Assembly: GCA_016932045.1 (NCBI GenBank)
Contig: JAFGDO010000011.1
Span: forward strand, 5,997-69,996
Direction: 5' to 3'
Length of the DNA stretch: 64,000 bases
Origin: Candidatus Dojkabacteria bacterium
GTDB lineage: Bacteria; Patescibacteriota; Dojkabacteria; JAHIVN01
Of the stretch, positions 36,163 to 52,212 are shown piece by piece (within the stretch, counting starts at the first letter, position 1; every line of letters starts with the position of its first letter). The position numbers and the translations under genes are program-made. Below the pieces are notes generated by a model, which worked only from the letters and a program-made list of their open reading frames with translations, had not been told where the DNA came from and ran no database searches.

Positions 36163-36210
36163 CTCTAGATAGTCAGATAGCTGGATAGTAAAAATAGGAA
36201 GATAATAGCA
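36163..36210. repeat. Tandem AGATAG/GGATAG motif array upstream of pilC
   Basis: ctctagatagtcagatagctggatagtaaaaataggaagataatag is the reverse-strand form of the TATCT family. Confidence 0.45.
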
Positions 36211-36324
36211 AGTAGCATAAAGCTAGGAGTGAGAGGAATTGCATTATTGAGAATAGTAGTTTATATTTTGCAGTAGGTTAAATATTTTGTAATAAATGAA
36301 TTTAAATTATTAGCAGTATAGGTA

Positions 36325-37536: not shown

Positions 37537-37566
37537 TATTAATTAAATTTTTAAATTTAAATAAGC

Positions 37567-38058: not shown

Positions 38059-38154
38059 AGATTAGGAAAAGAGTGTTCTGAAAAGTCTTTTAAGAGAAGT
38101 CCCTGTTTTATAGGGACTTCTGCTTTTAAAAGCAGAAATTACCTTAACATAGCT

Positions 38155-39018
38155 ATGCTGAAAGAACCTATGTCCTGGCTACTATTCATCTTATTTTTAC
38201 TAGGTTTATCAATCGGTAGTTTTATAAATGCTTTTGAGTACAGATTGCACAAGCGCATGGATTTTATAAAAGCAAGATCCCACTGTCCGAAGTGCAAACA
38301 TGTACTAAAGGCCCAAGATCTTATGCCTCTGCTGTCTTTTGTGCTTATTGGCGGCAAATGTAGGTATTGTGGAACTAAAGTTTCATGGCAATACCCTATT
38401 ATCGAATTTCTCTCTGGTATGCTCTTTTTCGCTTCGGGATGTTACGTTTCCTCTAGAATGCATATCCAAGGGCCTTTCGATATAGTTGTTATGTTACTTT
38501 CTTCTTGTTTTGTAGGTCTTTTGCTTACACTCTTTCTCTTTTTTGCACTATATGATGTGAAACATAAAATAGTTCCACAAAAGGTTATTATCCCAGCTAT
38601 TATTTTTGGTGTTTTCTATGTTTTATTTGTTGCCTTAGGTATGCATTTTAAGCCGCATTTGGATGTTTTCTTGGTATTTGAAGATGTAAGCCTCGTATGG
38701 AACTTTGTCGCAGCACTAATCGGGGGTTCTTTTATCGCTCTTCTCATAATTATCACCAGGGGCAAAGGTATGGGTGGAGGGGATTTGAAACTTCTAGTGT
38801 TTATGGGACTTATTTTAGGTCTAAAAAAGCTTGTTATTGCTTTCTATATTGCAATAATAACAGGATCAATTCTTGGAATATCTTGGGGTGCGCTAAAGGG
38901 GAAAATACGAGGTTTAAAGCTTCCTTTTGCTCTATTCTTGTCTCTCGGATCCATTATAGCTTTTTTGTGGGGGTCGGATATTTATTGGTGGTTTATAGGG
39001 ATTATCTGCTATTATTAG
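38155..39018 (+). CDS. pilD: Prepilin peptidase PilD (A24 family)
   Basis: The N-terminal zinc tetra-Cys is CPKCKH...CRYCG. The catalytic region is GMGGGDLKLL. Length is 287 aa. Confidence 0.9.
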   Translation: MLKEPMSWLLFILFLLGLSIGSFINAFEYRLHKRMDFIKARSHCPKCKHVLKAQDLMPLLSFVLIGGKCRYCGTKVSWQYPIIEFLSGMLFFASGCYVSSRMHIQGPFDIVVMLLSSCFVGLLLTLFLFFALYDVKHKIVPQKVIIPAIIFGVFYVLFVALGMHFKPHLDVFLVFEDVSLVWNFVAALIGGSFIALLIIITRGKGMGGGDLKLLVFMGLILGLKKLVIAFYIAIITGSILGISWGALKGKIRGLKLPFALFLSLGSIIAFLWGSDIYWWFIGIICYY

Positions 39019-39050
39019 TCTGCAGCTGCACAACCATTTGGCCATCCAAC

Positions 39051-39115
39051 AATCATCAATTCTCAATCTTCAATCGCCAATCTTTAATTAAAAATTAAGA
39101 ATTAAGAATGAATAA
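39051..39115. repeat. CAATCNN heptad array followed by AATTAAGAATTAAGAAT, motif copy 2 of 3
   Basis: caatcatcaattctcaatcttcaatcgccaatctttaattaaaaattaagaattaagaatg lies directly after the pilD stop. Confidence 0.4.
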
Positions 39116-39130
39116 ATGCTGCTTTCAGTT

Positions 39131-39345
39131 CCCAGCCTCCAGCTATCAGCTATCTGATTATCTAGTTATCTATCCATCTCCTGTCCGCTTTGGGCAAAAA
39201 CTATCTAGCCGTATAACAATATTTCAACCTCCAATTATTCAAATATACGAATATGCAATTAGTAATTAAAAATAAATAATACGGCTATTGGCTATATGAC
39301 TATCCGACTATCTAGCTATCTGTCTATCTTCCATCCAAGGTGCTT
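39131..39345. repeat. Two clusters of CTATCTGA/CTATCCATC motifs upstream of the minor pilin genes
   Basis: Cluster 1 is ccagctatcagctatctgattatctagttatctatccatctcc. Cluster 2 is acggctattggctatatgactatccgactatctagctatctgtctatcttccatcc. Confidence 0.45.
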
Positions 39346-39473
39346 GTCTGTTGGTAGACAGGGATCCGCCTAGGTCGGAAACTACTTATCTGTGTCCTAC
39401 TTCTTTCCAATTTGAAACTTCTGACAGATATAGTACAATGTTTATGAAATTTTTTGGTTTTTGTAAATTAAGT

Positions 39474-40055
39474 ATGTCGAAACTAGGAAAGAAATTCTTA
39501 AAAATTTACTCAAGGCAATCTGCATATACTATTTTAGAACTATTAATAGTCTTGTCGGTTGTTGGTACGATGATGGGAATTGTTGTTTATGGTGTTGTTA
39601 AGTTTAGGCAGACTGTTATTGTAAGTAATACAGCGAAAGAGATAGTTATTCAGATGAGGAAAGCAAGGAGGTATTCAATTAATAACGTCGTTACATCAGA
39701 TGGATTGAATCCTAGAGGATATTATTTTTATATTGATAATAATACAAATTACTACTTTGGTGAATGCGATTCGGGAGGTTGCACACATGAAGAAAAGGTG
39801 AAATCTGTAGAATTAACAGGAGTTAATGTTTCAGCTTGTAAAGTTGCCGGAGGCAATAGTTATCCAGTAATAAAATTTAACCAGGTGACTGGAGAATTTA
39901 TCTTTGTAGCTAGTTCTGCTTCAAGTGATATTATGGGTGCCACATCCCCTTCCTATAATGAGACATGCATCATAGAAGTAGAGATCGGTGGGACCATAAG
40001 TTCCTTGAGGGAAATTGAAGTTTCTGGTCAGAATAGGACTATTAGAATTAAATAG
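39474..40055 (+). CDS. Type IV minor pilin/pseudopilin. The start is uncertain; alternatives are 39438 and 39351.
   Basis: The prepilin-like sequence MSKLGKKFLKIYSRQSA|YTILELLIVLSVVG has E at +5 and Ala, not Gly, at -1. Confidence 0.55.
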   Translation: MSKLGKKFLKIYSRQSAYTILELLIVLSVVGTMMGIVVYGVVKFRQTVIVSNTAKEIVIQMRKARRYSINNVVTSDGLNPRGYYFYIDNNTNYYFGECDSGGCTHEEKVKSVELTGVNVSACKVAGGNSYPVIKFNQVTGEFIFVASSASSDIMGATSPSYNETCIIEVEIGGTISSLREIEVSGQNRTIRIK

Positions 40056-40257
40056 TAGCGAACTGCAAACAGCAAACAATAACCTGTTTGCCGAATGGAA
40101 ATTGACGATTTAGCATTGTCCTTTGACTAGCTCGACTTGACTGTATTCGTCCCGAGGTCCTTCCTGGCCTGACGTGCAGGACAGACAGACCGAGGGAAGC
40201 TCGTCGCAGGCAGGATAGAAAGATTGTCATATTGTTTATTGTAATATGGGGATTTAA

Positions 40258-40803
40258 ATGAGTAAATTGATAGGTAGTAAAATAAGACATCTTAAGGAAT
40301 TGGTTCGAGGATCAGATGGGCTTGGACTAGTTGAGGTTTTAGTTGCTCTGGCAGTCGTAGGTACTGCTATGGTTATCATTACACAGATTAGCCTCAAGAC
40401 TATAAAGCAGGCGAGGAAAAATGAACTCCAGGACGTAGCCAACCAGGTAGCTGTCGAAGCTTTGGATTTTATGAAACAACCAGGTAATATCACAGTGGAA
40501 ACAATTGGCGGGAGTAGTCCTAATTTAAATGGCGGTTTGTACAGATTGGATGTTGCAAATGGGAAAATTGAGTATAGTTCTTCCCAGCAGGCTGAGTTAA
40601 GTACAAGTAATTGTACTCCAGGGAGTCACTATTTAGATGCAAGTCTTTACTCATCAGGGTACCATGTCTGTCAACAAATTAAACTGACGAAAGTTTCAGA
40701 ATATAGATTTAATATCAAAGTAATTGTGGTATGGCAGACAGTTGGAGGAGAATATGATATTCGCGAATTGGCAGGATATAGGATTGGTGAGATTATTACT
40801 TAA
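40258..40803 (+). CDS. Type IV minor pilin/pseudopilin
   Basis: The class III signal is ...VRGSDG|LGLVEVLVALAVVG with G-1 and E+5. Confidence 0.65.
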   Translation: MSKLIGSKIRHLKELVRGSDGLGLVEVLVALAVVGTAMVIITQISLKTIKQARKNELQDVANQVAVEALDFMKQPGNITVETIGGSSPNLNGGLYRLDVANGKIEYSSSQQAELSTSNCTPGSHYLDASLYSSGYHVCQQIKLTKVSEYRFNIKVIVVWQTVGGEYDIRELAGYRIGEIIT

Positions 40804-40813
40804 GAATAAATAA

Positions 40814-41395
40814 ATGGATATATGTCACAGGCTGTTACAAAAAGTTAAGAGAGTAATATTTTCCGATTCGAGTGGTTTCTCTTTACTTGAACTGTTAATT
40901 ACGCTTGGAATATTTTCAATATTGATGGTAACAGTGACAGCTATTCTAGTTATAAATTTAAATGTTGCAAGAAAGATAAAGGGAAGAACTTATGCAAGAG
41001 AAGAGACGGCTTTTGTTCTCAATATTCTCAAGAAAGACATAAGAAATGCCGAGTTTATAGAAGAAGATTCCGGGAAATTAAGAGTAGTTGTAATTGATGA
41101 AGGAGGAAACAGCCGTACTTATGAATGGTCCCATGATGGTGATGATATAGTTCGCGAGGAAACTATTCCTGACACAAGAGTTACTTATCGAACTCCTGAG
41201 GACGTTGATTTTGAATCATTTAATTTTACGGTAACTGAAAATGAAAATAATTGGCTAGTAAGAATTTCAGTTACAGCATGGAGCGCTGGAATGCCCGGGC
41301 AACCCCTTGAGGATGGGGGCTCATGTAGTAATACTGAACAGCAATGTATCACAAAAGAAGTTGCAATTGCTACTAGAAATTTCGAGGAGCTATAA
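40814..41395 (+). CDS. Type IV minor pilin/pseudopilin
   Basis: The class III signal is ...IFSDSSG|FSLLELLITLGIF with G-1 and E+5. Confidence 0.65.
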   Translation: MDICHRLLQKVKRVIFSDSSGFSLLELLITLGIFSILMVTVTAILVINLNVARKIKGRTYAREETAFVLNILKKDIRNAEFIEEDSGKLRVVVIDEGGNSRTYEWSHDGDDIVREETIPDTRVTYRTPEDVDFESFNFTVTENENNWLVRISVTAWSAGMPGQPLEDGGSCSNTEQQCITKEVAIATRNFEEL

Positions 41396-41462
41396 AGTAT
41401 AGTCTTGGAAATAATTTTGTAGTAATATGTAATCTAGAAAATGATACTATCTTACATTTTGC

Positions 41463-42404
41463 TTGTTTCTTATAATGAAGTTTTTTCTAAAATCGATCAT
41501 AAATAGAATTAAGAAGAGAGATGAATCAGGGCAAATGTTGCTTTTTGTCTTGGTTGTAATTTTATTATTGCTGATCATAGTTCTTGCTATTGTTGTAAAC
41601 GTAAGGGTAGATATAAAAGAAACTCAAATGGAAAGGGAGTATGAGATGGGATACGCTATAGCAGAGGAACAAATTTTTAAAATTGCTTCTCTGGGCTATG
41701 CTGATGCAAAGGCGGAAAATGATAGTGCAAATTCGTGTTATACAAACACAGGTGATACTGGAACATTCTGTCCAGGAACAGAAGGGTGTGCTGGGGGCTG
41801 GGTGTGTACGGCCTATTGCTGCAAGGACTCACCTCCTTCAGGATGTGACTGTGACAGCGGAGATTGTTTTGTTGATAAAGTGTGCACTCACAATAGTATA
41901 TTTGGTGTATCTATAAATCAAGATGAAACTTTGGAAGTCGACCTCGGTGGACAGTCGGTTAGTGACTTTACAGATATATTTATTGATTGGGATACTGCAG
42001 AGGCTATATCTTTAATGGTTGTTTACAAGGATGGCCCTGGTAATTATCTAAATCAAAGGTTAGCAATGTGCAGAGAAGGCAATAATGGTTGCTATACAGG
42101 ATTTATAAACTATGATAATAGTCTGAATCTTGAATCTGACTGGAAAGGTGGCGTTACTATTTCCGGAACTGCAGTACTAATGAGAATAAGAGCGATTGGT
42201 GGTCAGGCAACAAATGTAACTGTTACAGGCAGTAACCTTCCCGTACAAATGGATGAAGTACGAGTTCAAGGTTTTACTGAAGGAGTAGCAGATGCAAAAG
42301 GTTTGTCTGCTCCTGAAGTTACAACATTAGCGATGAAGAATAAAAGGTTACCTGCTCTATTTGATTATGTACTATTTGTAGCAAATGATGATGTTACTAA
42401 ATAG
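41463..42404 (+). CDS. Pilus-associated membrane-anchored Cys-rich protein (PilX-like position)
   Basis: There is an N-terminal pilin-like hydrophobic helix without E+5. The Cys-rich module is CPGTEGCAGGWVCTAYCCKDSPPSGCDCDSGDC. Confidence 0.45.
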   Translation: MFLIMKFFLKSIINRIKKRDESGQMLLFVLVVILLLLIIVLAIVVNVRVDIKETQMEREYEMGYAIAEEQIFKIASLGYADAKAENDSANSCYTNTGDTGTFCPGTEGCAGGWVCTAYCCKDSPPSGCDCDSGDCFVDKVCTHNSIFGVSINQDETLEVDLGGQSVSDFTDIFIDWDTAEAISLMVVYKDGPGNYLNQRLAMCREGNNGCYTGFINYDNSLNLESDWKGGVTISGTAVLMRIRAIGGQATNVTVTGSNLPVQMDEVRVQGFTEGVADAKGLSAPEVTTLAMKNKRLPALFDYVLFVANDDVTK

Positions 42405-42421
42405 TTATATTAATTTTTAAA

Positions 42422-42829
42422 ATGTTTGTACAAATGGCAGAGACAAAAGAAGCTAAAAAAAGACGGGTGTTAATTGTAGATGATGAGCCCGACCTGCGTA
42501 TGATGTTTAAGGACATTCTAGGTACTTTCGGGTACGAATTAGATGAGGCTAGCGATGGAGTTGAGTGTCTGGAGAAGCTAAAAAAGGGCAAATATGATCT
42601 TATCCTGCTCGATCTTATGATGCCTAGAATGGATGGTATGGAGGCTTTAACACGTATAAAGCAAGAGCCAGATAAGTATGGGAGTGCTCCTGTTCTCATT
42701 CTCACGAATCTTACAAGTGATGTGGCTATAAAGGAGGGATTTGAAAGGAAAGCTGATGGCTATCTTATCAAAACAGAGCTGACCCCGGAGCAAGTGGTGA
42801 AAGAGATAGAAAAGTCATTAGGTAAGTAA
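42422..42829 (+). CDS. Single-domain response regulator (CheY-like receiver)
   Basis: VLIVDDEPDLRMM...YDLILLDLMMPRMDG...PVLILT is present, with the phospho-acceptor Asp and the conserved Lys region. There is no output domain. Confidence 0.85.
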   Translation: MFVQMAETKEAKKRRVLIVDDEPDLRMMFKDILGTFGYELDEASDGVECLEKLKKGKYDLILLDLMMPRMDGMEALTRIKQEPDKYGSAPVLILTNLTSDVAIKEGFERKADGYLIKTELTPEQVVKEIEKSLGK

Positions 42830-42887
42830 AACATTAAAAAAACAGTTGTAAAAATACTCTTAATTCGCAATTTCGTTCTACTATTAT

Positions 42888-43439
42888 ATGAAGGTTCTTC
42901 TTGATAGGTTAAAAATGCTTTGTGACAATAAGATAATACTTATTGTATTTATACTCATCCAGCTGGTACTTCTCTATGGTTTGACTTATTGGGGTTATCA
43001 CTCCTCTCGCCTACCCTACTGGTTTGATAACTTTGTGCACGAGACGAGAGTATGGAGGATTTACGGTAGAAAAGATTATAGTGTGCGGCCTGTTAGTCCT
43101 GAGACTTGGTTGGACCCCAGGCTAGGTTTCCTAAAGAAATCTTTTTGTGTACAAGAGATAAATGGATTCTTAAGAGGGAAAGAGGTGGTCAGTGAGGAAA
43201 AGGAGTATTGGTATATTGAATCCAGTGATCATCCAGAGGTAAAGATAGAAGTGAATAAACCCGTTGGTGAGGTTTTCTTGAAAGATTGCCGAGATACTGA
43301 GGATTGCAGCAAAGTTCAGGAAGTATCAGGAAATATTGATGAAGTAGAAGTCGGAGATGCTTTGATTATCCTGCAGGAGGAATCATACGAAGAGGAGCAT
43401 ACGATAAAAACTGGGACTATACGTATAATTAAATATTAA
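42888..43439 (+). CDS. Hypothetical membrane-anchored protein
   Basis: 183-aa ORF with an N-terminal TM. Confidence 0.4.
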   Translation: MKVLLDRLKMLCDNKIILIVFILIQLVLLYGLTYWGYHSSRLPYWFDNFVHETRVWRIYGRKDYSVRPVSPETWLDPRLGFLKKSFCVQEINGFLRGKEVVSEEKEYWYIESSDHPEVKIEVNKPVGEVFLKDCRDTEDCSKVQEVSGNIDEVEVGDALIILQEESYEEEHTIKTGTIRIIKY

Positions 43440-43448
43440 AATGGTCAT

Positions 43449-43826
43449 TTGAAGAAAGTAACTTTGGTGCTAAAAATCATAGCAGTTGTTTTTTTTGTAT
43501 TGAATCTATTTGTGGGTATAGTTATGATTCTCAATGTTGCAAACATGAAGAATAAGTCGTTTTTTTATCTACACAAGTTGAGTAGTGATGGTGGATTGGA
43601 TGAACCAAAGGTGAATCAGTTAATTGAGGATTGTAACTATGCAGATGAAGTGCTTGTATGTAATACGAATAATGATTTTATGATTTGGGGGAGGTATGAA
43701 TATGGTTTGGGGAAATTATCAGCGGGGACTTGTGAAGTTCTTGGGCTTGATAAAAATGGTTTGTCTTACTGTGCAAGAGGCGAAAATTATTTATGGATTC
43801 AGCCCGTTACTTATGAGGAACGTTAG
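43449..43826 (+). CDS. Hypothetical membrane-anchored protein
   Basis: 125-aa ORF with an N-terminal TM and a conserved Cys pair. Confidence 0.4.
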   Translation: MKKVTLVLKIIAVVFFVLNLFVGIVMILNVANMKNKSFFYLHKLSSDGGLDEPKVNQLIEDCNYADEVLVCNTNNDFMIWGRYEYGLGKLSAGTCEVLGLDKNGLSYCARGENYLWIQPVTYEER

Positions 43827-46731
43827 TTGTACTACAAGGAAGATTTTATATTGTTTGACTAGTACTTTTTTGGTGCTGATGTTTTGTGTTTTATTGTTCA
43901 GGGCTAGTGAAGTAAATGCTGTTTGCGGTGATTGTGGGTCATGCGGTCACCAATGCGGCTCAAGTTGCAGCGGCTGTGCATTGTGTTGCGCTTGCGGTGG
44001 AAATCCTTCTTGTGGTACTGGCAGCTACCCTTACTGTTGTAAGGACTGCAATAAAGGTGGGCATACAGATTGCTGCTGTGGAGGTTGTTTTCCTCCTGAA
44101 ACAAAAGTTACCATGGCGGATGGTTCTTTTAAGAATATCGAGGATATGAATGAGGGAGATGAGATCCTTACTTATAATGATGATATAGGAAAGAATGTTG
44201 CTGGAGAAGTACTCCAGGTTAAAACTTTTTCGAGAAATGGATATTATGTAGTGAATGACAATTTGCTAAAAGTTAGCGACAGTCATCCTATATATGCAAG
44301 GAAGTGGTATGGGCGGGAAACGTGGGCAGCTATAAATAAGTTTCAGGGGATTGTTGACTCAGGGTTAACGGAGCTGTCTTCACTTGAGGTTGGTGACAGC
44401 ATTTTGAATCAGGAGGGCGAATGGATACAAATAACATCTTTAGAATATTTTGCTGGAGGACTTGAAACATACACTTTAGTTTCCGACAATGGAACATTTT
44501 ACGCTGAGGGTTTTTTAGTTCATAATAAAGGATGTAGTTGTCAGACACCCAACGGAGTATCTTTAGTTTCTCCTGCAAATGGTACAGTTGAAATTGCATC
44601 GACTAGTGTTACATTGGACTGGACAGACACTTCTGATTGGAAAAAATGTTGTGATGACTGCAGTAAACATTACGAAGTTAGATTGAAGACAACTGGTGAT
44701 TGGTATGAACCAGGCGATTGTACTAATCCAACTTCTTCGACTTGTACTGTATCAGGTTTAAGCTGGTGTACAACCTATCAGTGGCAGGTAAAAGCAGATA
44801 ATGGGTGCAAATCATCAAGTTATACAGGGGTGTGGACATTTAAAACGAACTGTCTTCCGGAAGTTATTTCAGTAACGCCATCAGGGAATTGGTCTGGGAC
44901 AGAAACTGATACGGATAATGCCTCGGGATGTAGTGATAATAATCCTCAGACTTTCCAGATTGAATATAGAGATCAAGATGGGCATGATGATCTGTACTCA
45001 CTGGGGATATGGATAGATGACCAGGCTCCGCATGTGATGCAGATGCACAGCTCAATGCATGGAATGGCATCAAGAAGAGAGGGAGATTGGAGGATGTTTG
45101 GTTGGAGCTGCGATACAAGCAGACATGACACATGCGGGAGTTTACTAGATTGTGATTGTTATCTGAATTGGGATCTTGATGTGCCTTATTATGGTGTTGT
45201 TATTCCAGAGTCAACATACTCAATTTGTTCACCGAAAACTATTACAAATAGATCTGATGAATCACCATGGGATTTTTATGCCTTGTGTGATCCTCAATAT
45301 GCTCCACCAGTGAATTGGACAATATCAAATCTTCAGGGTTTTCCAGCTTCAAATACTAAGCTGGTTGACTGGAAGGTATGGTTTTATGGGGATATTGGAA
45401 CAAACTTAGATATCTATGCTGTAGCTATTGATGAACATGGGGCAAGATCAGGCAACTGGCAGGACATAGGAGACTGGAAGTTGGATCTGGACCTGCCTTT
45501 GGCAGACCCAGCACCACAGCCAAATTCGGCTTCACAAATGAGGGTTGACTGGGCAGTAAGTGAGGCAAAAAGCGGTATAAGAACAATAGACAGAGATTGC
45601 AGGAGTGATTTAGGAAGTAGTGATATTCCTGATTGTGGATGTGCAACAGGATTATGTACAACGTGTGAGAATCCTGCTGATCCACAGACATGTTATAGGG
45701 GGAGGAATACGAATTGGAAGAAAGCAGATGGAACTGATGACGGGGTGGATGACGTGGTAATGCCGGGAGGGACAAGCTGGACACATACGAACTACGATAC
45801 GATAACAGACATATCAAGTATAGAAGACGTACAATACAAGCTGACAGTGTCAGATAATGCATGTAATCAAAATAGGGTCGTAGATGAACAGGAATTGGGC
45901 AAAAGATGGATAAGGACAGATTATGGAGATACATATGCAAGTGGAGGATATAGTCTGCAGATACCGGATTTGATAGCTGAGGATAAAAGAGACAACCTTT
46001 CAAGATTCATATGCTCATCAGGGGTAGCAGTGAATGCATTTAGTCCTGGGGGAGCAAGTGTATATAATTATAGACTTTTTAGTTATGCAGATGAGAATAA
46101 GAATAAGACGTTTTATGATTATCTTGAAGAGATAGTAAGAGAGAATGATGATCATGAAAGCTGGAACATGGGAAGCTTCAGTACACCAGCACAGTGGGAT
46201 GGGATACAAAGCGCAGGGACAGACGGAGTGTATGAATGGACAGCAGGGACAGATTTAAACCTTTCAGGGAAGAATTGTACTGCAAAGACATTAGTATTTG
46301 TTCCATCTGGGCAGCTTATTATAACGCCGAATTTCGGGGTAACTGATGTAAGTGTAGCTGGGAGTGATAATGGATGTGTATTTGTAGTAAGGGACAATAT
46401 AGTGATACAAGCAGGAGGAGTAGGAACAGGATCATATTCCTCACCATATTATCCAGACACTGTACCATATGATTCGGTATATGGATTCTTCATCACAGAT
46501 GGGAATGTGATAATAGATGCTGATACAAACTATGACCAGCTCTTGATAAAGGGAGGGGTGATAAGCAGGGGGGGGACATTTGGAAGGGACTTACTCCTGC
46601 TAGATAATCTAATATTTGCAGCAGAGAGGATAGAGTATGATGCAAGGTATCTGGACATATTGAAACCGTACATAGGAAGTAATTACACGTATAAAGTAAG
46701 AGAATACAAATATTCTGAACCTACCTACTAA
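43813..46731 (+). CDS. Large secreted protein with a bacterial intein-like (BIL/Hint) autoprocessing domain. Start chosen at MRNVSC; the ORF-track start is 43696.
   Basis: The signal peptide is MRNVSCTTRKILYCLTSTFLVLMFCVLLFRASEVNA. It is followed by a ~55-aa Cys/Gly/Ser-rich segment, then the Hint module CFPPETKVTMADGSF...LKVSDSHPIYA...TFYAEGFLVHN at nt 44086-44526. FN3-like and large C-terminal domains follow. Confidence 0.7.
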   Translation: MRNVSCTTRKILYCLTSTFLVLMFCVLLFRASEVNAVCGDCGSCGHQCGSSCSGCALCCACGGNPSCGTGSYPYCCKDCNKGGHTDCCCGGCFPPETKVTMADGSFKNIEDMNEGDEILTYNDDIGKNVAGEVLQVKTFSRNGYYVVNDNLLKVSDSHPIYARKWYGRETWAAINKFQGIVDSGLTELSSLEVGDSILNQEGEWIQITSLEYFAGGLETYTLVSDNGTFYAEGFLVHNKGCSCQTPNGVSLVSPANGTVEIASTSVTLDWTDTSDWKKCCDDCSKHYEVRLKTTGDWYEPGDCTNPTSSTCTVSGLSWCTTYQWQVKADNGCKSSSYTGVWTFKTNCLPEVISVTPSGNWSGTETDTDNASGCSDNNPQTFQIEYRDQDGHDDLYSLGIWIDDQAPHVMQMHSSMHGMASRREGDWRMFGWSCDTSRHDTCGSLLDCDCYLNWDLDVPYYGVVIPESTYSICSPKTITNRSDESPWDFYALCDPQYAPPVNWTISNLQGFPASNTKLVDWKVWFYGDIGTNLDIYAVAIDEHGARSGNWQDIGDWKLDLDLPLADPAPQPNSASQMRVDWAVSEAKSGIRTIDRDCRSDLGSSDIPDCGCATGLCTTCENPADPQTCYRGRNTNWKKADGTDDGVDDVVMPGGTSWTHTNYDTITDISSIEDVQYKLTVSDNACNQNRVVDEQELGKRWIRTDYGDTYASGGYSLQIPDLIAEDKRDNLSRFICSSGVAVNAFSPGGASVYNYRLFSYADENKNKTFYDYLEEIVRENDDHESWNMGSFSTPAQWDGIQSAGTDGVYEWTAGTDLNLSGKNCTAKTLVFVPSGQLIITPNFGVTDVSVAGSDNGCVFVVRDNIVIQAGGVGTGSYSSPYYPDTVPYDSVYGFFITDGNVIIDADTNYDQLLIKGGVISRGGTFGRDLLLLDNLIFAAERIEYDARYLDILKPYIGSNYTYKVREYKYSEPTY

Positions 46732-46855
46732 GGATCAAAACGATTAAGCAACTTAACCTTCATGCATTTAGATCACTTACTTCATTGTTGCTTAATGGTC
46801 CCGAATTATCTATACTGTCTTAGAGTATTTAAATTATTCTTCTTGTGACGTTATT

Positions 46856-47332
46856 ATGAGCAAGAGAAGAATCGGCTATATATTTATTCTTGTTGGTGTT
46901 CTAGTTGCAGTCTTTTCAGGTGTTGTTGTTCTATCACTAACCTTGAAGGAGAAAGAGGAATATAAGGAAATAGAAGAGATTGAGGAGGAAGAAGGGTTTG
47001 AAGAGGAAAGTCCCGAAGAGATAGTAAGGGAAGCTTTTGGAGGGGTTTATCCTTTAAGCGGTGAAATTATTGAGATAGACGTAGGTGAAAAGTGGATAAT
47101 GGTAAAGGTTGATGATGAAGAAAAAAGGTTTGATATTTCAGATAACTTTAAATGCGAGCAAATAGGTATGCCGGGTCAGGTTTGCGAAAGTATGGAAGGC
47201 ACCGGATGTGATTTGGAACCGTTAACTTGTAGGCTTTCTTCTGTCGAAATAGAGAATTCTCTTGGCGTTGATTTGGAGATTGATTCGGATAACGAGGCTG
47301 TATTTTTAAGAGTACATTACATTGCCCATTAA
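46856..47332 (+). CDS. Hypothetical acidic membrane-anchored protein
   Basis: N-terminal TM and a Glu-rich low-complexity region. Confidence 0.4.
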   Translation: MSKRRIGYIFILVGVLVAVFSGVVVLSLTLKEKEEYKEIEEIEEEEGFEEESPEEIVREAFGGVYPLSGEIIEIDVGEKWIMVKVDDEEKRFDISDNFKCEQIGMPGQVCESMEGTGCDLEPLTCRLSSVEIENSLGVDLEIDSDNEAVFLRVHYIAH

Positions 47333-47340
47333 TTTTTCGC

Positions 47341-49422
47341 ATGGCCAAACTGAAAGATAAAGAAAATTATATTCTAGTATTTCTATCCTCTTCTCTTCTC
47401 TTTATAACGATACTATTGTTTTTTCCTGGAAGAATTTTTGCAGCAGGTGCAAATCCACTCGAAAGGCTACCTACTGGAAAAACAACACCTGATGATTTAG
47501 GTTGGACATATATCGGGTCCAGTGTTGGCGGGTATAAGTGCTATGATTTAGCTAGTTATGGTGTAGAAAAGGTCAGATATGTTATGTTCTTAAATGATTC
47601 AAATCAGACTGAATGGGATGTAAGAGGTGCAGATCCTGATGGTGTACTTGTGATACACGCAGAAGATCCTGCTTATAACGGAATCGGAGCAAATGCTGTT
47701 GCGCATGTAAAGATCGGAGACGGGGGTGTAGGCAAGTATGGATGTAATGATGATGGAAATCTAAGTCGCGTTCTGGGAGCTCCAAAAAGATGTGGAGGAA
47801 CTCCGGGATGTGCTTGTGCTCTTGGTCACGATCCGGAGCCGGGACAATACGGCGGAGAAAGTGGGTATGTTATATTGGATGTTGCTTGTGGTACTAATAT
47901 AAATCCACTGACTTGTAGTGGTCCAGAAAGTGAGGATAGTGGAAGGCTGATAGTTGATAGGCCTGGCAATGACTTTTGTGTGTCTGAAGTTGGTTATGGA
48001 GAATCTCATAGACTTTATACATTAGATTACTATGCAAATGCACCTGAAGTAACGGTAAACAAACCCGAGAATTGTGCAAATGAGTTTGTGTTTAGAATTA
48101 CAGCAAGGGATGATGAGGATCAAGGAGTTTCAAAATTTACGCTACTTCTTAATGATAAACGTAGTGGTCCTTGGGTGGTAAGGTCTGACCGTCTAGGAGT
48201 CGATCTGGAGGCTGGCGGTAAAAATAGTCTTGGAGCAATTGTGGAAGATTATAGAGAGCCTTCAAGTAAAGAATCTATACTTGAACTTAAAGTAGGAAAT
48301 TTATCTACAAGATTTGATGAAGAAGATATAGGTGTTTTAGCTGAAGTGGAAGATAAGCGGGGACAAATAGGCAAGGGCGACGGAGGGACCTTTATCTCGG
48401 GTTTAAAGCCAGCAGTGGAATTCTTGAATGATTCCAGGGAGGAAAATACTATAACTTTGAGTTGGCAAGTGAGCGATAATCGGCCACTTGCAACAAAATG
48501 CAATTTTTCGTGTGCTGGAGACGGAGCTTGCAACTGTGGGGCTATTCCATGTCCAAGTATGAATCCAGAGACAGTATCAATTTCTTGTACACTCGAAACA
48601 ATCGGCAGCTATAATTTCGAATATACTGTAGAAAACATTTGTGGTTCTGATACAGATAGTCAGGGAGCTACATTGGGAGCCCCATGGCTTATGACGGCTT
48701 ATGGTGATACTTATGCACATCAGGGGTTTGGTACTTTGGTAATGCAGGATGTTATCGATGATACTATGGTATCTTCCTGGGCTAAAGGTGAGCCTCCAGG
48801 CAGTGGGAATCAAGCATATTTTTCAACATACATAATTTCAAAGTTTGATCAAAATTATCCTAGTAGAACAAGTTTGTTAAATTACTTACTTTCTCCTTAT
48901 GAGGATAGGAATGTATCTAAAGTTGGTACTCCAGATGAAGTTTACCATTTTATGTTTGCTCTTGCTCAATCTAATGAATGTTTTGATTCTGGTTTTTGTT
49001 CGGAAGTTCTAAATAAAGATGTTGATGTTTCCAGTATGAACTGTGAGGCGACGCATGTTTATTTTGTAGATGGGGATCTAAATTTTATTGGCAGTGGCAG
49101 TTTCTTGGCGTCCCCAAATGAAGCGTGTGTTTTTGTTGTGAAGGGAAATGTCACAGTGGGATCAGGGGTCGAAAGAATAGACAGCTTTATACTTTTAGAT
49201 GGACAGTTCGAAACTGAAATTAGTGGTACAACACTTGTTTTGCAAGGGGGGGTAATAACAGATAATTCTCTTTTTAAAAGATCCTTAAGCGGTTTTCAGA
49301 ACAATGATATGCCAAGTGAAATCATTATATATGATGCAAAGTATCTGGATTTACTTCGAGAATATATAAGTCAGGGATACACTGTCAAAATAAGAGAATA
49401 TAGTTATTCAAGTGTTAAGTAA
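47341..49422 (+). CDS. Large secreted protein, paralog of the C-terminal part of 43813-46731
   Basis: A signal peptide is present. Shared blocks are AYGDTYAHQGF, CVFVVKGNVTVGSG and LQGGVI. The shared C-terminal block is YDAKYLDLLREYISQGYTVKIREYSYS. Confidence 0.65.
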   Translation: MAKLKDKENYILVFLSSSLLFITILLFFPGRIFAAGANPLERLPTGKTTPDDLGWTYIGSSVGGYKCYDLASYGVEKVRYVMFLNDSNQTEWDVRGADPDGVLVIHAEDPAYNGIGANAVAHVKIGDGGVGKYGCNDDGNLSRVLGAPKRCGGTPGCACALGHDPEPGQYGGESGYVILDVACGTNINPLTCSGPESEDSGRLIVDRPGNDFCVSEVGYGESHRLYTLDYYANAPEVTVNKPENCANEFVFRITARDDEDQGVSKFTLLLNDKRSGPWVVRSDRLGVDLEAGGKNSLGAIVEDYREPSSKESILELKVGNLSTRFDEEDIGVLAEVEDKRGQIGKGDGGTFISGLKPAVEFLNDSREENTITLSWQVSDNRPLATKCNFSCAGDGACNCGAIPCPSMNPETVSISCTLETIGSYNFEYTVENICGSDTDSQGATLGAPWLMTAYGDTYAHQGFGTLVMQDVIDDTMVSSWAKGEPPGSGNQAYFSTYIISKFDQNYPSRTSLLNYLLSPYEDRNVSKVGTPDEVYHFMFALAQSNECFDSGFCSEVLNKDVDVSSMNCEATHVYFVDGDLNFIGSGSFLASPNEACVFVVKGNVTVGSGVERIDSFILLDGQFETEISGTTLVLQGGVITDNSLFKRSLSGFQNNDMPSEIIIYDAKYLDLLREYISQGYTVKIREYSYSSVK

Positions 49423-49519
49423 GAAGTATTTTTTTTGTTTTTACTAAATATATAGATTCTCTTTTGTACTAGACAGAAGTATTAAAATCTCTTATACTAA
49501 TAGGTAGACAATTATTTTT

Positions 49520-50599
49520 TTGATTAAACATCTTATGAACCTGCCCGATTTTTTTGGCTTAGATATTGGAACTCACTCAATAAAGGTTTGTCAGCTGAGA
49601 TGGCAAGGCAAAAATCCTACCTTGATAGCGATCGGCAATACGGCAACTCCAAGGGGAATACTCGGAAGTGAGAGTGAGGAACATCAGAAGGAGTTAGCAA
49701 GACATATTAAACTTGCGCGTAAAGATGCGGGGATTAGCGTTGATAAGGCAGTTGTTGGTTTACCAGAAGCAAGAATTTTTACCCAGCTAGTTACGGTCCC
49801 AAAAGTAGAGGAAGGAAAGGTTGAAGAACTCATTCACTGGGAGGCAAAAAAGTATGTTCCTATCCCGATTGATGAGGTAAGAATAGACTGGATATTTTTG
49901 GGAGAGAGAAATATAGATGGTCAACCCCATCTTGATGTCTTTCTTATTGCAGCTCCCAATAATCTCATAGAACGATATATAAAGGTGATGAAATATGCAG
50001 GAATAGAACCTATTGGTATAGAGACTGAGTCGATTTCAACTACCAGAGCGTTGTGGTGGCCGACACAGATGGGAGTAAAAGATGCTGATTCTCAAGAATC
50101 ATCATCGGTTATGATCTTAGACTTTGGAGCAAATAGTACTGATCTTTCAGTTGTACAAGCTGGTTCTCTACTCTTTTCACAAAGCCTTGTAACAGGATCA
50201 GATGCGCTTACAAAAGCGCTAGCTTCCGATTTCGGATTGGATGTTCAACAAGCCGAAGAGTACAAAAGAAATTATGGTCTCGATGAAACTCAATTAGAAG
50301 GTAAGATTGCTAACTCCCTAAAGCCTGTAATGCAAGTAATTACAAATGAAGCACGAAAAACACTCGATTTCTTTAAATCAAGATTTGAGAAGAGTACTCC
50401 AAGAAGGCTCTTATTAGTTGGAGATGGAGCAAAATTACCCGGAATCCTGACTTTTATGGCAACTGAACTGGGTATAGAAGCAGCGTTAGCAGACCCTTTT
50501 GCAAATGTAGCGGTTTCGAAAAATGTCGAGAGTAAATTTCAGCAGATCTCATCTGTTGGATATTGTGTAGCTCTTGGTTTATCATTAAAGACTGAGTAA
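49520..50599 (+). CDS. pilM: Type IV pilus assembly protein PilM (actin-like ATPase fold)
   Basis: FFGLDIGTHSIKVCQL is the phosphate-1 motif. LVGDGAKLPG is also present. Confidence 0.85.
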   Translation: MIKHLMNLPDFFGLDIGTHSIKVCQLRWQGKNPTLIAIGNTATPRGILGSESEEHQKELARHIKLARKDAGISVDKAVVGLPEARIFTQLVTVPKVEEGKVEELIHWEAKKYVPIPIDEVRIDWIFLGERNIDGQPHLDVFLIAAPNNLIERYIKVMKYAGIEPIGIETESISTTRALWWPTQMGVKDADSQESSSVMILDFGANSTDLSVVQAGSLLFSQSLVTGSDALTKALASDFGLDVQQAEEYKRNYGLDETQLEGKIANSLKPVMQVITNEARKTLDFFKSRFEKSTPRRLLLVGDGAKLPGILTFMATELGIEAALADPFANVAVSKNVESKFQQISSVGYCVALGLSLKTE

Positions 50600-50711
50600 G
50601 TAATATTTCAGTGGTCGAATTCTCATTCGGATCTGTAGAGCGGAATATATAATAATCTAAGGATCAACTGAAAGCGAAGGATTTTCTATAGTATATCTTT
50701 TATCTAGTATA

Positions 50712-51284
50712 ATGCCAGTATATAAACACACAATTGATTTCTTACCTAAGCCTAGTACAGAAGAGGTTGAAGAACGCTTTAAAGTATCAAAGGCAGGTGT
50801 ATATGCTGCAATTCTTCCGCTTCTTGCTGCTTTAATTTGGCTGGCTGCGGTCTTTATCAATTTCTACTACAGGAATGAGGTGAAACAAGTAGAAGCAGAG
50901 ATTCTTGCTAAACGTGTAGAGGTTGATTCATACTTGGAAACCAGGAGGAAACAAACGGAACTTGTGTTGAAAGTTGACTCATTAACGGACTTGGTTCAAA
51001 AGGATTTTTTTCCTCAAAAATTTTTTGATGATGTTTCAGATACAATTAAATCTACAGGAGATGCTCAAGCGACTATATATGCATACGGTCGAGAAGAAGA
51101 TGGTATGTTTAGTATAGAAGGGCGGGCAAACTCTTATCTTGATCTTGCTAAGATAATGGTTGTTTTTACTGGTAAGCGTGAGTTTGAGAATGTGATTATA
51201 AAATCTATTCACTATAATCCAGAGAGAAATAATGTGAATTTCGAAATAAAGTTTTACTATTCGGGATTATTGGAAGAAGTTTAA
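50712..51284 (+). CDS. pilN: PilN-like bitopic pilus alignment protein
   Basis: A single TM is followed by a coiled coil and a periplasmic-type domain. The gene sits directly after pilM. Confidence 0.5.
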   Translation: MPVYKHTIDFLPKPSTEEVEERFKVSKAGVYAAILPLLAALIWLAAVFINFYYRNEVKQVEAEILAKRVEVDSYLETRRKQTELVLKVDSLTDLVQKDFFPQKFFDDVSDTIKSTGDAQATIYAYGREEDGMFSIEGRANSYLDLAKIMVVFTGKREFENVIIKSIHYNPERNNVNFEIKFYYSGLLEEV

Positions 51285-51360
51285 AAGTATCTTGATTTTT
51301 TTATTCTAGAATTATTAAGTTGTTGGTATAAAACTTTATGATAGTTTTTATGCATATTCT

Positions 51361-52212
51361 ATGCCAGAAGAAGGATTACAAGACAGAAAAAGAGAAAAAG
51401 GAGTCCATGAGCTAGTGAAGGATGCCGAGAAAGGCCGTAAAGCACCACTACCCGAGAAGTTTAAAAAGAGCGGGAAGAATGCGTTAAAGATGATTTTATA
51501 TTATAGCGCTCCTCTGATAAGCATTGCTATATTTTTACTTATCCTTGTGTTGGGTACTATACCGGCGGTAAAAGGGATAGTGCAAAGTAATAATGAGATT
51601 GAAGAAAAGAATGGAGAAATTAAGGAACTAGAGAAACAGATTAAAGTACTTGAAGCCCTAAGGCTGAATGAGGCGGATGTGAATATGGACCTTGCTACTA
51701 TTGATAAAATAGTCCCCTCAGAGAAGACACAAGTTGCTAAATTTGTTGGAGAAATCGAGGAGATGGCAAAGTTATACAATCTTGAAGAATCAAAGTATGA
51801 ATCAGGGGAAACAATAGAAAAGCTAGAGGAAGAGATAGAAGAGGAGTTGAAAAAGGAAAGCGCTGCAATAATTCACATACCAACTTCTTCTGAGTATATA
51901 GCAACATTTGAAGATATCAAGGAGTTTCTAAATGCTTTATACTACAAAGATGATTTTATCATAGTAAGTTCCCTTGATATGCAGGGATATGAAGCTCGTG
52001 AGTATCAGGCAGGTCGTCAGCGTGAAATGGGAGAACAGGTTACAATTGACACAACAATTCCTGTAACTGAATGGACTATGAAGGTGACGTTTGAGAAGTA
52101 TCAATTTAGTGAGGGATTTAGTAAATATCTGGAGGAGAATTTAGTATCTATGCAGAGTAAGCCAAACGAAGAAACATTAATATTTATAAGGGAAAAATAC
52201 AGCAGTCAGTAA
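51361..52212 (+). CDS. pilO: PilO-like bitopic pilus alignment protein
   Basis: A single TM is followed by a coiled coil. The position is after pilM/pilN. Call by architecture only. Confidence 0.4.
   Translation: MPEEGLQDRKREKGVHELVKDAEKGRKAPLPEKFKKSGKNALKMILYYSAPLISIAIFLLILVLGTIPAVKGIVQSNNEIEEKNGEIKELEKQIKVLEALRLNEADVNMDLATIDKIVPSEKTQVAKFVGEIEEMAKLYNLEESKYESGETIEKLEEEIEEELKKESAAIIHIPTSSEYIATFEDIKEFLNALYYKDDFIIVSSLDMQGYEAREYQAGRQREMGEQVTIDTTIPVTEWTMKVTFEKYQFSEGFSKYLEENLVSMQSKPNEETLIFIREKYSSQ

What the first reader, a model, noticed from the sequence alone, without database searches (positions are those of the whole stretch)
43813..49422. Two paralogous large secreted proteins embedded in the T4P operon share a distinctive C-terminal block
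The 972-aa gene (43813-46731) and the 693-aa gene (47341-49422) share collinear blocks. RWIRTDYGDTYASGGYSLQIPDL matches PWLMTAYGDTYAHQGFGTLVMQDV. CVFVVRDNIVIQAGGVGTGS matches CVFVVKGNVTVGSGVERIDS. LLIKGGVISRG matches LVLQGGVITDN. The C-terminal tails ERIEYDARYLDILKPYIGSNYTYKVREYKYS and IIIYDAKYLDLLREYISQGYTVKIREYSYS also match. Both have signal peptides and Cys-rich N-terminal halves. They sit where PilY1/PilC-type tip adhesins sit in other T4P loci, but show no resemblance I can see to PilY1. The conserved Tyr-rich C-terminal tail could be a sorting, anchoring or pilin-interaction motif.
Basis: seen in the sequence. Interest (0 to 1): 0.6.

Follow-up and report, generated by a model that had tools for sequence, protein, structure and literature searches.

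The report
Pilus-linked adhesin family with shared β-solenoid end
Two large secreted proteins inside the type IV pilus gene cluster of a Dojkabacteria (candidate phyla radiation) bacterium share an unannotated C-terminal β-solenoid domain that defines a family of several hundred pilus-linked proteins, and they probably play the role that the tip adhesin PilY1 plays in other bacteria.

Summary
Genes A (43813-46731, 972 aa) and B (47341-49422, 693 aa) share a collinear C-terminal block: BLASTP E = 4e-22, 26% identity over 322 columns.

The block is a folded domain of about 250-300 aa. No Pfam, NCBIfam or PDB sequence profile matches it. An exhaustive HMMER search finds it in 435 clusters (50% identity level), and it lies at the extreme C-terminus in all 150 members examined.

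The N-terminal parts are mosaic and unrelated between members. The named members are Dojkabacteria or Patescibacteria "hypothetical proteins".

In 10 of 11 long loci the gene lies inside or next to a type IV pilus cluster. It is usually preceded by small single-pass membrane proteins and sometimes overlaps the PilX-like minor pilin gene.

Best reading, by inference only: a non-homologous PilY1 analogue, with a constant C-terminal module that docks on the pilus and variable N-terminal modules that bind targets. I did not test docking, and the role of the conserved tail is unknown.

The parts
43813..46731 (+). Gene A, 972 aa: signal peptide, Cys-rich segment, Hint/BIL domain, fn3, further β-rich modules, and the family C-terminal domain
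   Evidence: ORF and translation. Identical to NCBI MBN2015748.1, 'hypothetical protein [Candidatus Dojkabacteria bacterium]', annotated there from a later start (950 aa). Pfam fn3 at aa 254-335, E = 2e-6.
43813..43920 (+). A: predicted Sec signal peptide (aa 1-36, MRNVSCTTRKILYCLTSTFLVLMFCVLLFRASEVNA|V)
   Evidence: By inspection. Only this start gives an n-h-c signal peptide; the 43879 (NCBI) and 43696 (longest ORF) starts do not.
43921..44085 (+). A: Cys-rich segment directly upstream of the Hint domain (17 Cys in aa 37-92, counting the Hint Cys92)
   Evidence: Cys-rich segments after the signal peptide are common in the family.
44086..44526 (+). A: Hint / bacterial intein-like (BIL) domain, aa 92-238, from Cys92 to His237-Asn238; the next residue is Lys239
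   Evidence: phmmer against PDB 6y75/6tmm (BIL2) over the full domain, E = 2e-6 (identity of the entry from PMC8616854). Weak Pfam Hint/Vint and NCBIfam intein_Nterm hits, below their cut-offs. Motif positions.
45811..46728 (+). A: shared C-terminal block (aa 667-972). It comprises the end of an Ig-like domain with the D-x-A-C-N motif, then the β-solenoid domain from W699, then the conserved tail ERIEYDARYLDILKPYIGSNYTYKVREYKYS (46624-46716)
47341..49422 (+). Gene B, 693 aa: signal peptide (aa 1-34), a low-confidence N-terminal region, tandem Ig-like domains, and the family C-terminal domain
   Evidence: Identical to NCBI MBN2015750.1, 'hypothetical protein'. AF2 model m81fbad664168 has pLDDT >90 over most of mature residues 200-640. 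Ig-like matches.
48592..49419 (+). B: shared C-terminal block (aa 418-693). The solenoid domain starts at PWLMT (48682), the flanking helix is EVYHFMFALAQSN (48937-48975), and the tail is IIIYDAKYLDLLREYISQGYTVKIREYSYS (49321-49410)
46856..47332 (+). 158-aa single-pass membrane protein (N-terminal TM helix, acidic linker, small β-rich domain), ending 8 nt before B
   Evidence: A small TM protein precedes the family genes in L002, L003, L004, L007, L010, L011, L012, L013, L015 and L016.
42888..43439 (+). 183-aa single-pass membrane protein upstream of A; homologous to the 207-aa protein of the L013 cassette and the 166-aa protein of L011
   Evidence: BLAST clustering.
43449..43826 (+). 125-aa single-pass membrane protein (119 aa as called by the Logan gene caller) whose stop overlaps the start of A by 14 nt
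42422..42829 (+). Stand-alone receiver-domain response regulator between the PilX-like gene and the cassette
   Evidence: Pfam Response_reg in the precomputed gene table. Same position in L002, L007 and L009. In L016 it also follows the PilX-like gene, although there the cassette lies after PilM/N/O. It accompanies the cassette in L013, where no pilus genes lie within 10 kb.
41463..42404 (+). PilX/GspK-like tip minor pilin candidate (313 aa; N-terminal ...SGQ|MLLFVLVV... hydrophobic helix without Glu5). This is the proposed docking partner.
   Evidence: Homologues are present in all nine other pilus loci of this type. No Pfam PilX_N hit, so the assignment rests on position and N-terminal features.
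39351..41395 (+). Three prepilin-type minor pilins (GspH/FimU-like, PilV/GspI-like, PilW/GspJ-like)
   Evidence: NCBIfam hits below the curated cut-offs: gspH, type_IV_pilV, gspI, gspJ, ComGF, IV_pilin_GFxxxE.
49520..52212 (+). PilM, PilN-like and PilO-like alignment-complex genes immediately downstream of B
   Evidence: Pfam PilM_2 in the gene table; ORFs.

Best explanation
A and B are two members of an undescribed family of Sec-exported, modular cell-surface proteins from Dojkabacteria and related Patescibacteria. The family is defined by a constant C-terminal module. This module is an ice-binding-protein/ComZ-like right-handed β-solenoid of about 250 aa, packed against one α-helix. It ends in a short strand-helix cap and a conserved polar, aromatic tail with consensus P-x-E-x-I-x-Y-D-P-R/K-Y-L ... 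I-R-E-Y-x-Y-S. Everything N-terminal of it is variable and mosaic: Cys-rich segments, fn3 and Ig-like domains, CBM60, Kelch, and in A a Hint/BIL domain.

The family is genetically tied to the type IV pilus minor-pilin cluster. The most likely mechanism, which is inferred, runs as follows. After Sec export, the constant C-terminal module docks on the minor-pilin priming/tip complex, most plausibly on the PilX/GspK-like subunit. It is carried out on the pilus tip, where the variable N-terminal modules bind the target. For an epibiotic CPR bacterium the target is probably the surface of a host cell. This is the division of labour known for PilY1/PilC, reached with an unrelated fold.

Two paralogues with different N-terminal parts would give alternative tips. 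The small, fast-evolving single-pass membrane proteins encoded just upstream are proposed to hold or chaperone the cognate large protein at the membrane until it is loaded. A cell with no outer membrane would otherwise lose a soluble exported protein.

Shown here: homology, family size, strictly C-terminal position, fold, pilus linkage, mosaic N-termini. Inferred: docking partner, tip location, adhesion, and the role of the small membrane proteins.
For: - **Homology and family.** A against B gives E = 4e-22. The family has 435 clusters, and the domain ends within 24 residues of the C-terminus in 150 of 150 members.
- **No existing annotation.** There is no Pfam, NCBIfam or PDB sequence match to the domain. 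The NCBI names are 'hypothetical protein [Candidatus Dojkabacteria bacterium]'.
- **Pilus linkage.** Of 11 long loci, 10 are pilus-linked. Nine place the gene within a canonical pilus locus despite rearrangements: between the PilX-like gene and PilM (window, L002, L007, L009), as an inverted cassette (L010, L012, L014, L015), or after PilMNO (L016). In L011 it lies next to a different T2SSE/T2SSF/pilin cluster.
- **Coupling to the PilX-like gene.** In L012 the family gene overlaps the PilX-like gene by 17 nt, and in L014 it abuts it with a 1-nt gap. In L015 it overlaps a shorter PilX-related ORF. In all three these genes are on the same strand, while the other pilus genes are on the opposite strand.
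- **Variable N-termini.** A's Hint domain occurs in 1 of 150 members, B's N-terminal domain in 6 of 150, and other modules are shuffled.
- **The tail.** It is the most densely conserved stretch, yet it is the least confidently modelled part of the monomer: pLDDT falls from 94 to 56 in B and is below 50 in A. That pattern fits a partner-dependent motif.
- **Small membrane proteins.** One or two precede nearly every family gene.
Against: - There is no direct evidence of any protein-protein contact or of pilus localisation.
- All context loci share wider synteny (S16, KH, RNase III, NusB nearby). They come from one lineage and are not fully independent.
- One long locus (L013) carries the cassette without pilus genes within 10 kb. 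A weak fragment (P0151, L005) sits among mobile-element genes.
- Similarity to ComZ is no greater than similarity to ice-binding proteins in general. It may reflect only a common solenoid fold, and sequence identity is 10-16%.
- The strand-helix part of the tail is modelled with confidence as a cap on the solenoid. Part of the tail's conservation may therefore be purely structural.
- The small membrane proteins are too divergent to define a family, so their role is a guess.
Confidence: 0.55

Rival explanations
1. The proteins are substrates of the pilus machine rather than stable tip components. The machine would act like a type II secretion piston: the conserved C-terminal domain is a recognition module that binds the pseudopilus tip transiently, so the large proteins are pushed through the cell wall or S-layer and released or deposited on the surface.
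For: This reading shares the pilus linkage and the conserved-module logic of the main explanation. Treuner-Lange et al. note that PilY1 resembles a type II secretion substrate docked on the GspK-like tip (PMC7541494). Dojkabacteria are taken here to be monoderm, so large proteins must cross a wall (general knowledge).
Against: The locus encodes a PilT retraction ATPase and a full PilMNO set, which is typical of true retractile pili. Nothing distinguishes transient from stable binding in the data.
Confidence: 0.15
2. The proteins are pilus-independent surface display proteins. The C-terminal domain anchors them to the cell wall, the S-layer, or the extracellular domain of the upstream single-pass membrane protein. 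Linkage to pilus genes would then reflect co-regulation of host-attachment genes only.
For: A small membrane protein is encoded directly upstream of almost every family gene, often with overlapping stop and start codons. The L013 cassette (response regulator, two small proteins, family gene) exists without pilus genes within 10 kb. Strictly C-terminal conserved domains are typical of wall-anchoring modules (general knowledge).
Against: The constant domain would be expected to bind a conserved partner, but the small membrane proteins are highly divergent. Linkage to the minor-pilin cluster survives inversion and relocation. There is translational coupling to the PilX-like gene in L012 and L014. 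The domain matches no known wall-binding family.
Confidence: 0.15
3. The C-terminal β-solenoid is an enzyme, such as a glycan lyase or hydrolase like many β-helix proteins and phage tailspikes. It would cut host or own cell-wall polymers at the site of pilus action.
Confidence: 0.07
4. The domain is a true ice-binding (antifreeze or ice-adhesion) domain of the DUF3494 type.
Against: There is no sequence match to the Pfam ice-binding family even at E <= 5. The pilus linkage has no relation to ice. ComZ shows that this fold is used for other purposes.
Confidence: 0.02

Closest known systems
PilY1 / PilC (non-pilin type IVa pilus tip adhesin of Pseudomonas, Myxococcus, Neisseria, Kingella)
   Same: Both have a Sec (type I) signal peptide and are not pilins. 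Both are encoded with the core minor pilins, next to the PilX-type gene. [quoted passage not shown] Multiple paralogues with different N-termini occur, as with M. xanthus PilY1.1-1.3 and Neisseria/Kingella PilC1/PilC2 (PMC7541494; PMC11525922).
   Different: There is no sequence similarity to PilY1. The C-terminal fold is a β-solenoid with a flanking helix, not a seven-bladed β-propeller. The host lineage is taken to lack an outer membrane, and no secretin gene is seen in the locus. Small single-pass membrane partners are encoded upstream. Tip location and minor-pilin binding are not shown here.
ComZ of Thermus thermophilus (competence-pilus tip pilin, PDB 6qvi)
   Different: ComZ is itself a GspK-like pilin, with the solenoid inserted between its last two β-strands. 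A and B have no pilin domain and no class III signal peptide, and their solenoid is the C-terminal constant module rather than the variable functional one. Sequence identity is about 15%. Homology is unproven. DNA binding was not tested.
IBP-1 fold ice-binding proteins (DUF3494; e.g. ColAFP 3wp9, AnpIBP 7bwx, SfIBP_1 6bg8)
   Different: No sequence-profile match exists. The family has about 100 extra residues N-terminal to the helix, carrying its own conserved motifs (PW-x-MT-x-x-GD, Y-x-D-x-N), and a conserved C-terminal tail. The genomic context is the pilus, not cold adaptation.
Bacterial intein-like (BIL) / Hint domains (relevant to A only)
   Same: A residues 92-238 align end to end with BIL2 (6y75/6tmm). 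The catalytic Cys1, a block-B (T/S)xxH motif (SDSH) and the C-terminal His-Asn are all present.
   Different: Residue +1 is Lys, not Cys/Ser/Thr, so canonical splicing is not expected. Scores against Pfam Hint models are below the gathering thresholds. The domain lies in an exported, pilus-linked protein directly after a 17-Cys segment. Activity was not tested.

Membership tests
PilY1/PilC | C-terminal PilY1 domain (seven-bladed modified β-propeller; Pfam Neisseria_PilC/PilY1 family) | tested here: not met
PilY1/PilC | Type I (Sec) signal peptide; a soluble non-pilin protein | tested here: met
   The N-termini of A and B have n-h-c regions with A-x-A-like sites (by inspection). No prepilin G-F-x-x-x-E motif occurs in any of 150 family members.
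PilY1/PilC | [quoted passage not shown] | tested here: met
   Window gene order. Ten of 11 long loci are pilus-linked: nine within canonical T4P loci and L011 beside a different pilus-type cluster.
PilY1/PilC | Physical association with minor pilins and the pilus tip; required for piliation or adhesion | not testable with these tools
   This needs complex prediction or experiment.
ComZ-type tip pilin | GspK-like pilin fold with an N-terminal hydrophobic α1 helix | tested here: not met
   A and B have cleavable Sec-type leaders. The B model shows Ig-like domains and then the solenoid, with no pilin domain. No prepilin motif in the family.
ComZ-type tip pilin | Large ice-binding-protein-like β-solenoid domain | tested here: met
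ComZ-type tip pilin | DNA binding and binding of an adjacent minor pilin (PilA2) | not testable with these tools
   No assay or complex model was available.
DUF3494 / IBP-1 ice-binding proteins | Sequence membership in the Pfam ice-binding family | tested here: not met
   None of 18 diverse domain sequences matches it at E <= 5. A profile search of PDB sequences finds no ice-binding protein.
DUF3494 / IBP-1 ice-binding proteins | Right-handed β-helix with a long α-helix packed alongside | tested here: met
DUF3494 / IBP-1 ice-binding proteins | Flat ice-binding face; thermal hysteresis activity | not tested
   Model coordinates could not be inspected, and no assay was available.
Intein / BIL (Hint superfamily), protein A only | N-terminal catalytic Cys/Ser, block B TxxH, and C-terminal His-Asn | tested here: met
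   Cys92, S155-D-S-H158 and H237-N238. Full-length alignment to BIL2 (6y75), E = 2e-6.
Intein / BIL (Hint superfamily), protein A only | +1 nucleophile (Cys/Ser/Thr) needed for canonical protein splicing | tested here: not met
   Residue 239 is Lys. This argues for a cleaving BIL-type domain rather than a splicing intein.
Intein / BIL (Hint superfamily), protein A only | Score above the curated Pfam/NCBIfam thresholds | tested here: inconclusive
   Hint 24.3 bits against a cut-off of 29.7; Vint, Hom_end_hint and intein_Nterm are all below their cut-offs.
Type IV pilin | Class III signal peptide (G|F-x-x-x-E followed by a hydrophobic helix) | tested here: not met
   A regular-expression scan of 150 members found none. 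No N_methyl hit for A or B.
C-terminal sorting signals (LPXTG, PEP-CTERM and similar) | Short motif followed by a hydrophobic transmembrane tail and basic residues | tested here: not met
   The last 35 residues of A and B are polar and aromatic with no hydrophobic run. The conserved unit is a folded domain of about 250-300 aa.

The most novel reading that the evidence does not exclude
The family may be a 'split ComZ'. In this reading a free-standing, Sec-exported solenoid uses its conserved C-terminal tail (…Y-x-x-K-I/V-R-E-Y-x-Y-S) as a donor β-strand. The strand would complete the fold of the PilX/GspK-like minor pilin, or of the upstream membrane protein, and so cap the pilus. That would be a new, modular way of loading interchangeable, fast-evolving host-recognition heads onto type IV pili in wall-bounded CPR bacteria. 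In A, a BIL/Hint domain would trim or transfer the Cys-rich N-terminal cap after export.
Probability: 0.12. Interest if true: 0.85.

Novelty: new variant of a known kind. Interest (0 to 1): 0.58.

Why it matters
CPR/Patescibacteria are mostly uncultured epibionts. Their type IV pili are the best candidates for finding and holding host cells, but the molecules that give specificity are largely unknown. In Saccharibacteria only PilX1 and PilX2 have been proposed (PMC11623550).

This finding gives Dojkabacteria a concrete, searchable candidate. A constant C-terminal domain flags a family of several hundred clusters of pilus-linked proteins whose variable heads are likely host- or substrate-binding modules. 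Defining the domain would let thousands of 'hypothetical proteins' be annotated. It would provide a marker for pilus adhesin cassettes in metagenomes.

If docking is confirmed, it would also show that the PilY1 solution (constant dock plus variable head) evolved independently on a different fold, one related in shape to the ComZ tip receptor. The Hint/BIL domain in an exported pilus-linked protein is an additional, testable oddity.

Tried and rejected
- **Word-indexed protein search.** It was nearly blind to this family: 0 hits with A's domain, 1 hit with an 18-sequence profile and 1 hit with a 6-sequence profile. It did not even return A and B themselves. The exhaustive representative search was the one that worked.
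- **Collection scans.** Two scans of genome contigs and one of viral contigs found no confirmed relative. The metagenome scan gave three loci.
- **Fold libraries.** The afdb50 library was unavailable. Foldseek against PDB with the full B model was dominated by the tandem Ig-like domains and said nothing about the solenoid.
- **Profile against PDB sequences.** The only hit was a spurious E = 0.66 match.
- **Promoter and terminator scan of the operon.** Counts did not clearly differ from the shuffled controls.
- **Organism identification.** An exact look-up of the KH protein returned only the same contig. The organism came instead from cluster names.
- **Rejected: pilin.** No prepilin motif.
- **Rejected: classical C-terminal sorting signal.** No hydrophobic tail.
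- **Rejected: PilY1 homologue.** Neither domain nor fold matches.
- **Rejected: low-complexity or chance similarity.** E = 4e-22 and a large family.
- **Rejected: covalent host attachment through the Hint thioester.** Cleavage at Cys92 would detach the N-terminal peptide from the pilus-bound part.
- **Not done.** I could not run a complex prediction, could not inspect model coordinates to map conserved residues, and could not obtain ComZ or ice-binding-protein sequences for a profile-profile test.
Full report
**1. The observation**

The window carries a long run of + strand genes from 32563 to 52212. In order they are PilB, PilT, PilC, a major-pilin-like gene, PilD, three prepilin-type minor pilins, a 313-aa PilX/GspK-like protein, a stand-alone response regulator, two small membrane proteins, gene A (43813-46731, 972 aa), another small membrane protein, gene B (47341-49422, 693 aa), and then PilM, PilN-like and PilO-like genes.

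BLASTP of A against B gives a single significant collinear alignment, A 667-968 with B 418-690, at E = 4e-22 and 26% identity. Nothing else in the two proteins is similar. No other ORF in the window has the block.

Both N-termini look like Sec signal peptides. A is very Cys-rich near its N-terminus (17 Cys in aa 37-92). B is not notably Cys-rich.

**2. The block is a domain that defines a family**

A profile of the two blocks, searched exhaustively against 1.84 billion cluster representatives, finds 435 proteins at E <= 1e-3 and 198 at E <= 1e-10. In all 150 proteins listed, the match ends within 24 residues of the C-terminus.

Neither Pfam nor NCBIfam has a model that matches. A family profile finds nothing among PDB sequences.

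Family-wide conserved positions are given here in B numbering:
- a Cys in a D-x-A-C-N motif at the end of the preceding Ig-like domain;
- P-W449-x-x-T-x-x-G-D;
- Y520-x-D-x-N;
- a Cys pair (568 and 596) on neighbouring solenoid turns;
- G636 in G-G-V-I;
- R647;
- the tail N654 ... P658-x-E-x-I-x-Y664-D-x-x-Y668 ... R685-E686.

Most members start with a signal-peptide-like segment, often followed by a Cys-rich stretch. None has a prepilin motif.

The N-terminal parts are mosaic. A's Hint domain is unique among the 150. B's N-terminal domain is shared by 6. Other modules (fn3, CBM60, SpaA-like, Kelch, Big_7) occur sporadically.

The named members are 'hypothetical protein' or 'fibronectin type III domain-containing protein' from Candidatus Dojkabacteria, plus one from a 'Patescibacteria group bacterium'. 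A is MBN2015748.1 and B is MBN2015750.1.

**3. Fold**

I made two AlphaFold2 models.
- The C-terminal 312 residues of A, with an 18-sequence alignment, gave pTM 0.70 and was confident for residues 105-290.
- Mature B, with a 101-sequence alignment, gave pLDDT above 90 over most of residues 200-640.

Both show the same domain. Short strands and a long ordered loop carry the PW...GD and YxDxN motifs. One α-helix follows, then a stack of short β-strands (a solenoid), then a strand-plus-helix cap. The final 15-20 residues fall in confidence, to 56 in B and below 50 in A.

ComZ is a competence-pilus protein whose ice-binding-protein-like solenoid is inserted into a GspK-like pilin fold, and it is argued to sit at the pilus tip (PMC6561018). 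The similarity here is at fold level only, with 10-16% identity. It is no stronger to ComZ than to ice-binding proteins.

**4. Genomic context elsewhere**

I fetched loci for twelve other family members. Ten had long flanks.

| Arrangement | Loci |
|---|---|
| Same order as the window: pilin, PilD, minor pilins, PilX-like, response regulator, then the family gene(s), then PilMNO. L002 and L007 have two [small membrane protein + family gene] pairs. L009 has one 1415-aa member with no small partner on the same strand. | L002, L007, L009 |
| Cassette inverted relative to the other pilus genes but still between PilM and the minor pilins | L010, L012, L014, L015 |
| Two pairs placed after PilMNO | L016 |
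| Two members beside a different T2SSE/T2SSF/pilin cluster | L011 |
| Response regulator, two small proteins and a family gene, with no pilus genes within 10 kb | L013 |

In L012 the family gene overlaps the PilX-like gene by 17 nt. In L014 it abuts that gene with a 1-nt gap. In L015 it overlaps a shorter PilX-related ORF.

In L013 the first small protein is homologous to the window's 183-aa protein.

L003 and L004 are short contigs, each with a small membrane protein overlapping a family gene. In both, the solenoid carries a large Cys-repeat insertion between two turns.

A weak 201-aa fragment (P0151) lies among mobile-element genes.

So 10 of 11 long loci are pilus-linked. The caveat is that all share neighbouring housekeeping genes and therefore come from one lineage. 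On the other hand, the linkage has survived inversion and relocation.

The PilX-like protein is conserved across the loci, whereas the small membrane proteins are very divergent. Nearly all of them have an N-terminal TM helix.

**5. How it most likely works**

This is a statement of logic, not of homology. [quoted passage not shown]

I therefore propose that the constant solenoid module docks on the minor-pilin priming complex, most plausibly on the conserved PilX-like subunit, and that the variable N-terminal modules act as adhesins. Two paralogues would give alternative tips.

The tail is the densest conserved segment, and its last part is poorly ordered in the monomer models. That fits a partner-dependent motif. 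The YD-x-x-YL helix part, however, is confidently modelled as a solenoid cap, so its conservation may be structural.

The divergent small membrane proteins more probably pair with the divergent N-terminal parts, or simply tether the exported protein in a cell without an outer membrane.

All of this is inference. I tested no interaction.

The rivals, set out in full in the Rival explanations section, are:
- a transient type-II-secretion-like substrate;
- a pilus-independent surface anchor acting through the small membrane protein;
- an enzymatic β-helix;
- true ice binding.

**6. Comparison and membership**

- Not PilY1: no domain match and a different fold.
- Not a ComZ-type pilin: no pilin domain.
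- Not a sequence member of DUF3494.
- Not a pilin.
- Not a classical sorting signal.

It works like PilY1, by inference, and it looks like the ComZ and ice-binding-protein solenoid, at fold level.

**7. The Hint/BIL domain in A**

Residues 92-238 of A align end to end with the bacterial intein-like domain BIL2 (6y75/6tmm, E = 2e-6). They have Cys1, an SDSH block B and a terminal His-Asn, but a Lys at position +1.

This predicts self-cleavage at one or both ends rather than splicing. Cleavage would remove or transfer the 17-Cys N-terminal segment after export. Scores against the curated Hint models are below threshold, and activity is untested.

**8. Novelty and verdict**

I found no description of this family in Pfam, NCBIfam, PDB sequences or the searchable literature. 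The concept of a non-pilin tip adhesin with a constant dock and a variable head is known. The fold, the lineage and the accompanying small membrane proteins are new.

I rate it a new variant of a known kind, with interest 0.58. Confidence is about 0.9 in the descriptive part: domain, family, fold and pilus linkage. It is about 0.5 in the docking and adhesin mechanism.

Noticed in passing
window 44086-44526 (A aa 92-238), with 43921-44085 upstream: A contains a Hint / bacterial intein-like domain (Cys92 ... His237-Asn238, then Lys239) directly after a segment with 17 Cys in 56 residues (the count includes Cys92). It is unique among 150 family representatives, and the best solved relative is BIL2 (6y75/6tmm). 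It predicts autoproteolytic maturation of an exported, pilus-linked protein.
   Followed up: partly
window 42888-43439, 43449-43826, 46856-47332; L002 5038-5679 and 8005-8529; L003 222-743; L004 214-768; L007 9047-10000 and 12181-13182; L016 9037-10008 and 12517-13506: Nearly every family gene is immediately preceded by one or two small or medium single-pass membrane proteins (N-terminal TM helix, acidic linker, small β-rich domain), often with overlapping stop and start codons. They are too divergent to form one family by BLAST.
   Followed up: partly
window 42422-42829; L013 8609-9004: A stand-alone receiver-domain response regulator follows the PilX-like gene in several loci. In L013 it travels with the cassette away from any pilus genes, which hints at a regulatory link to the cassette itself.
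   Followed up: partly
L012 10001-13922; L014 10001-14624; L015 10001-14728: In a sister lineage the family gene is inverted relative to the other pilus genes but stays coupled to the PilX-like minor pilin gene on the same strand (17-nt overlap in L012, 1-nt gap in L014).
   Followed up: partly
L003 724-4056; L004 743-3967: Two family members carry an insertion of about 400 aa made of Cys-containing repeats (…C-x-x-x-x-C-S…, possibly a propeller) inside the C-terminal solenoid, between two turns. The solenoid therefore tolerates large insertions.
   Followed up: partly
window 43696 / 43813 / 43879: Gene callers disagree on the start of A: Logan gives 972 aa from 43813, NCBI gives 950 aa from 43879, and the longest ORF starts at 43696 with a GGAGG only 1 nt upstream. 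Only 43813 gives a complete signal peptide.
   Followed up: partly
window 20317-23283 (-), with 17749-18792 (+) and 23441-24820 (-): A 988-aa ORF that looks cytoplasmic has no Pfam match. It lies between a tyrosine integrase gene and a gene for an AAA-ATPase with a Trans_reg_C DNA-binding domain. This may be part of an integrated element.
   Followed up: no
window 57748-63417 (-): Three adjacent genes encode an FG-GAP repeat protein, a FecR-domain protein and a CHASE2 sensor fused to an adenylate/guanylate cyclase. A GH18 chitinase-like gene lies nearby at 55753-56931.
   Followed up: no
L013 (same sample SRR13394437, another contig): A third cassette closely resembling the A cassette (response regulator, a homologue of the window's 183-aa membrane protein, a small protein, and the 1185-aa family member P0150) occurs in the same sample outside a pilus locus. 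I did not determine whether it belongs to the same genome.
   Followed up: no
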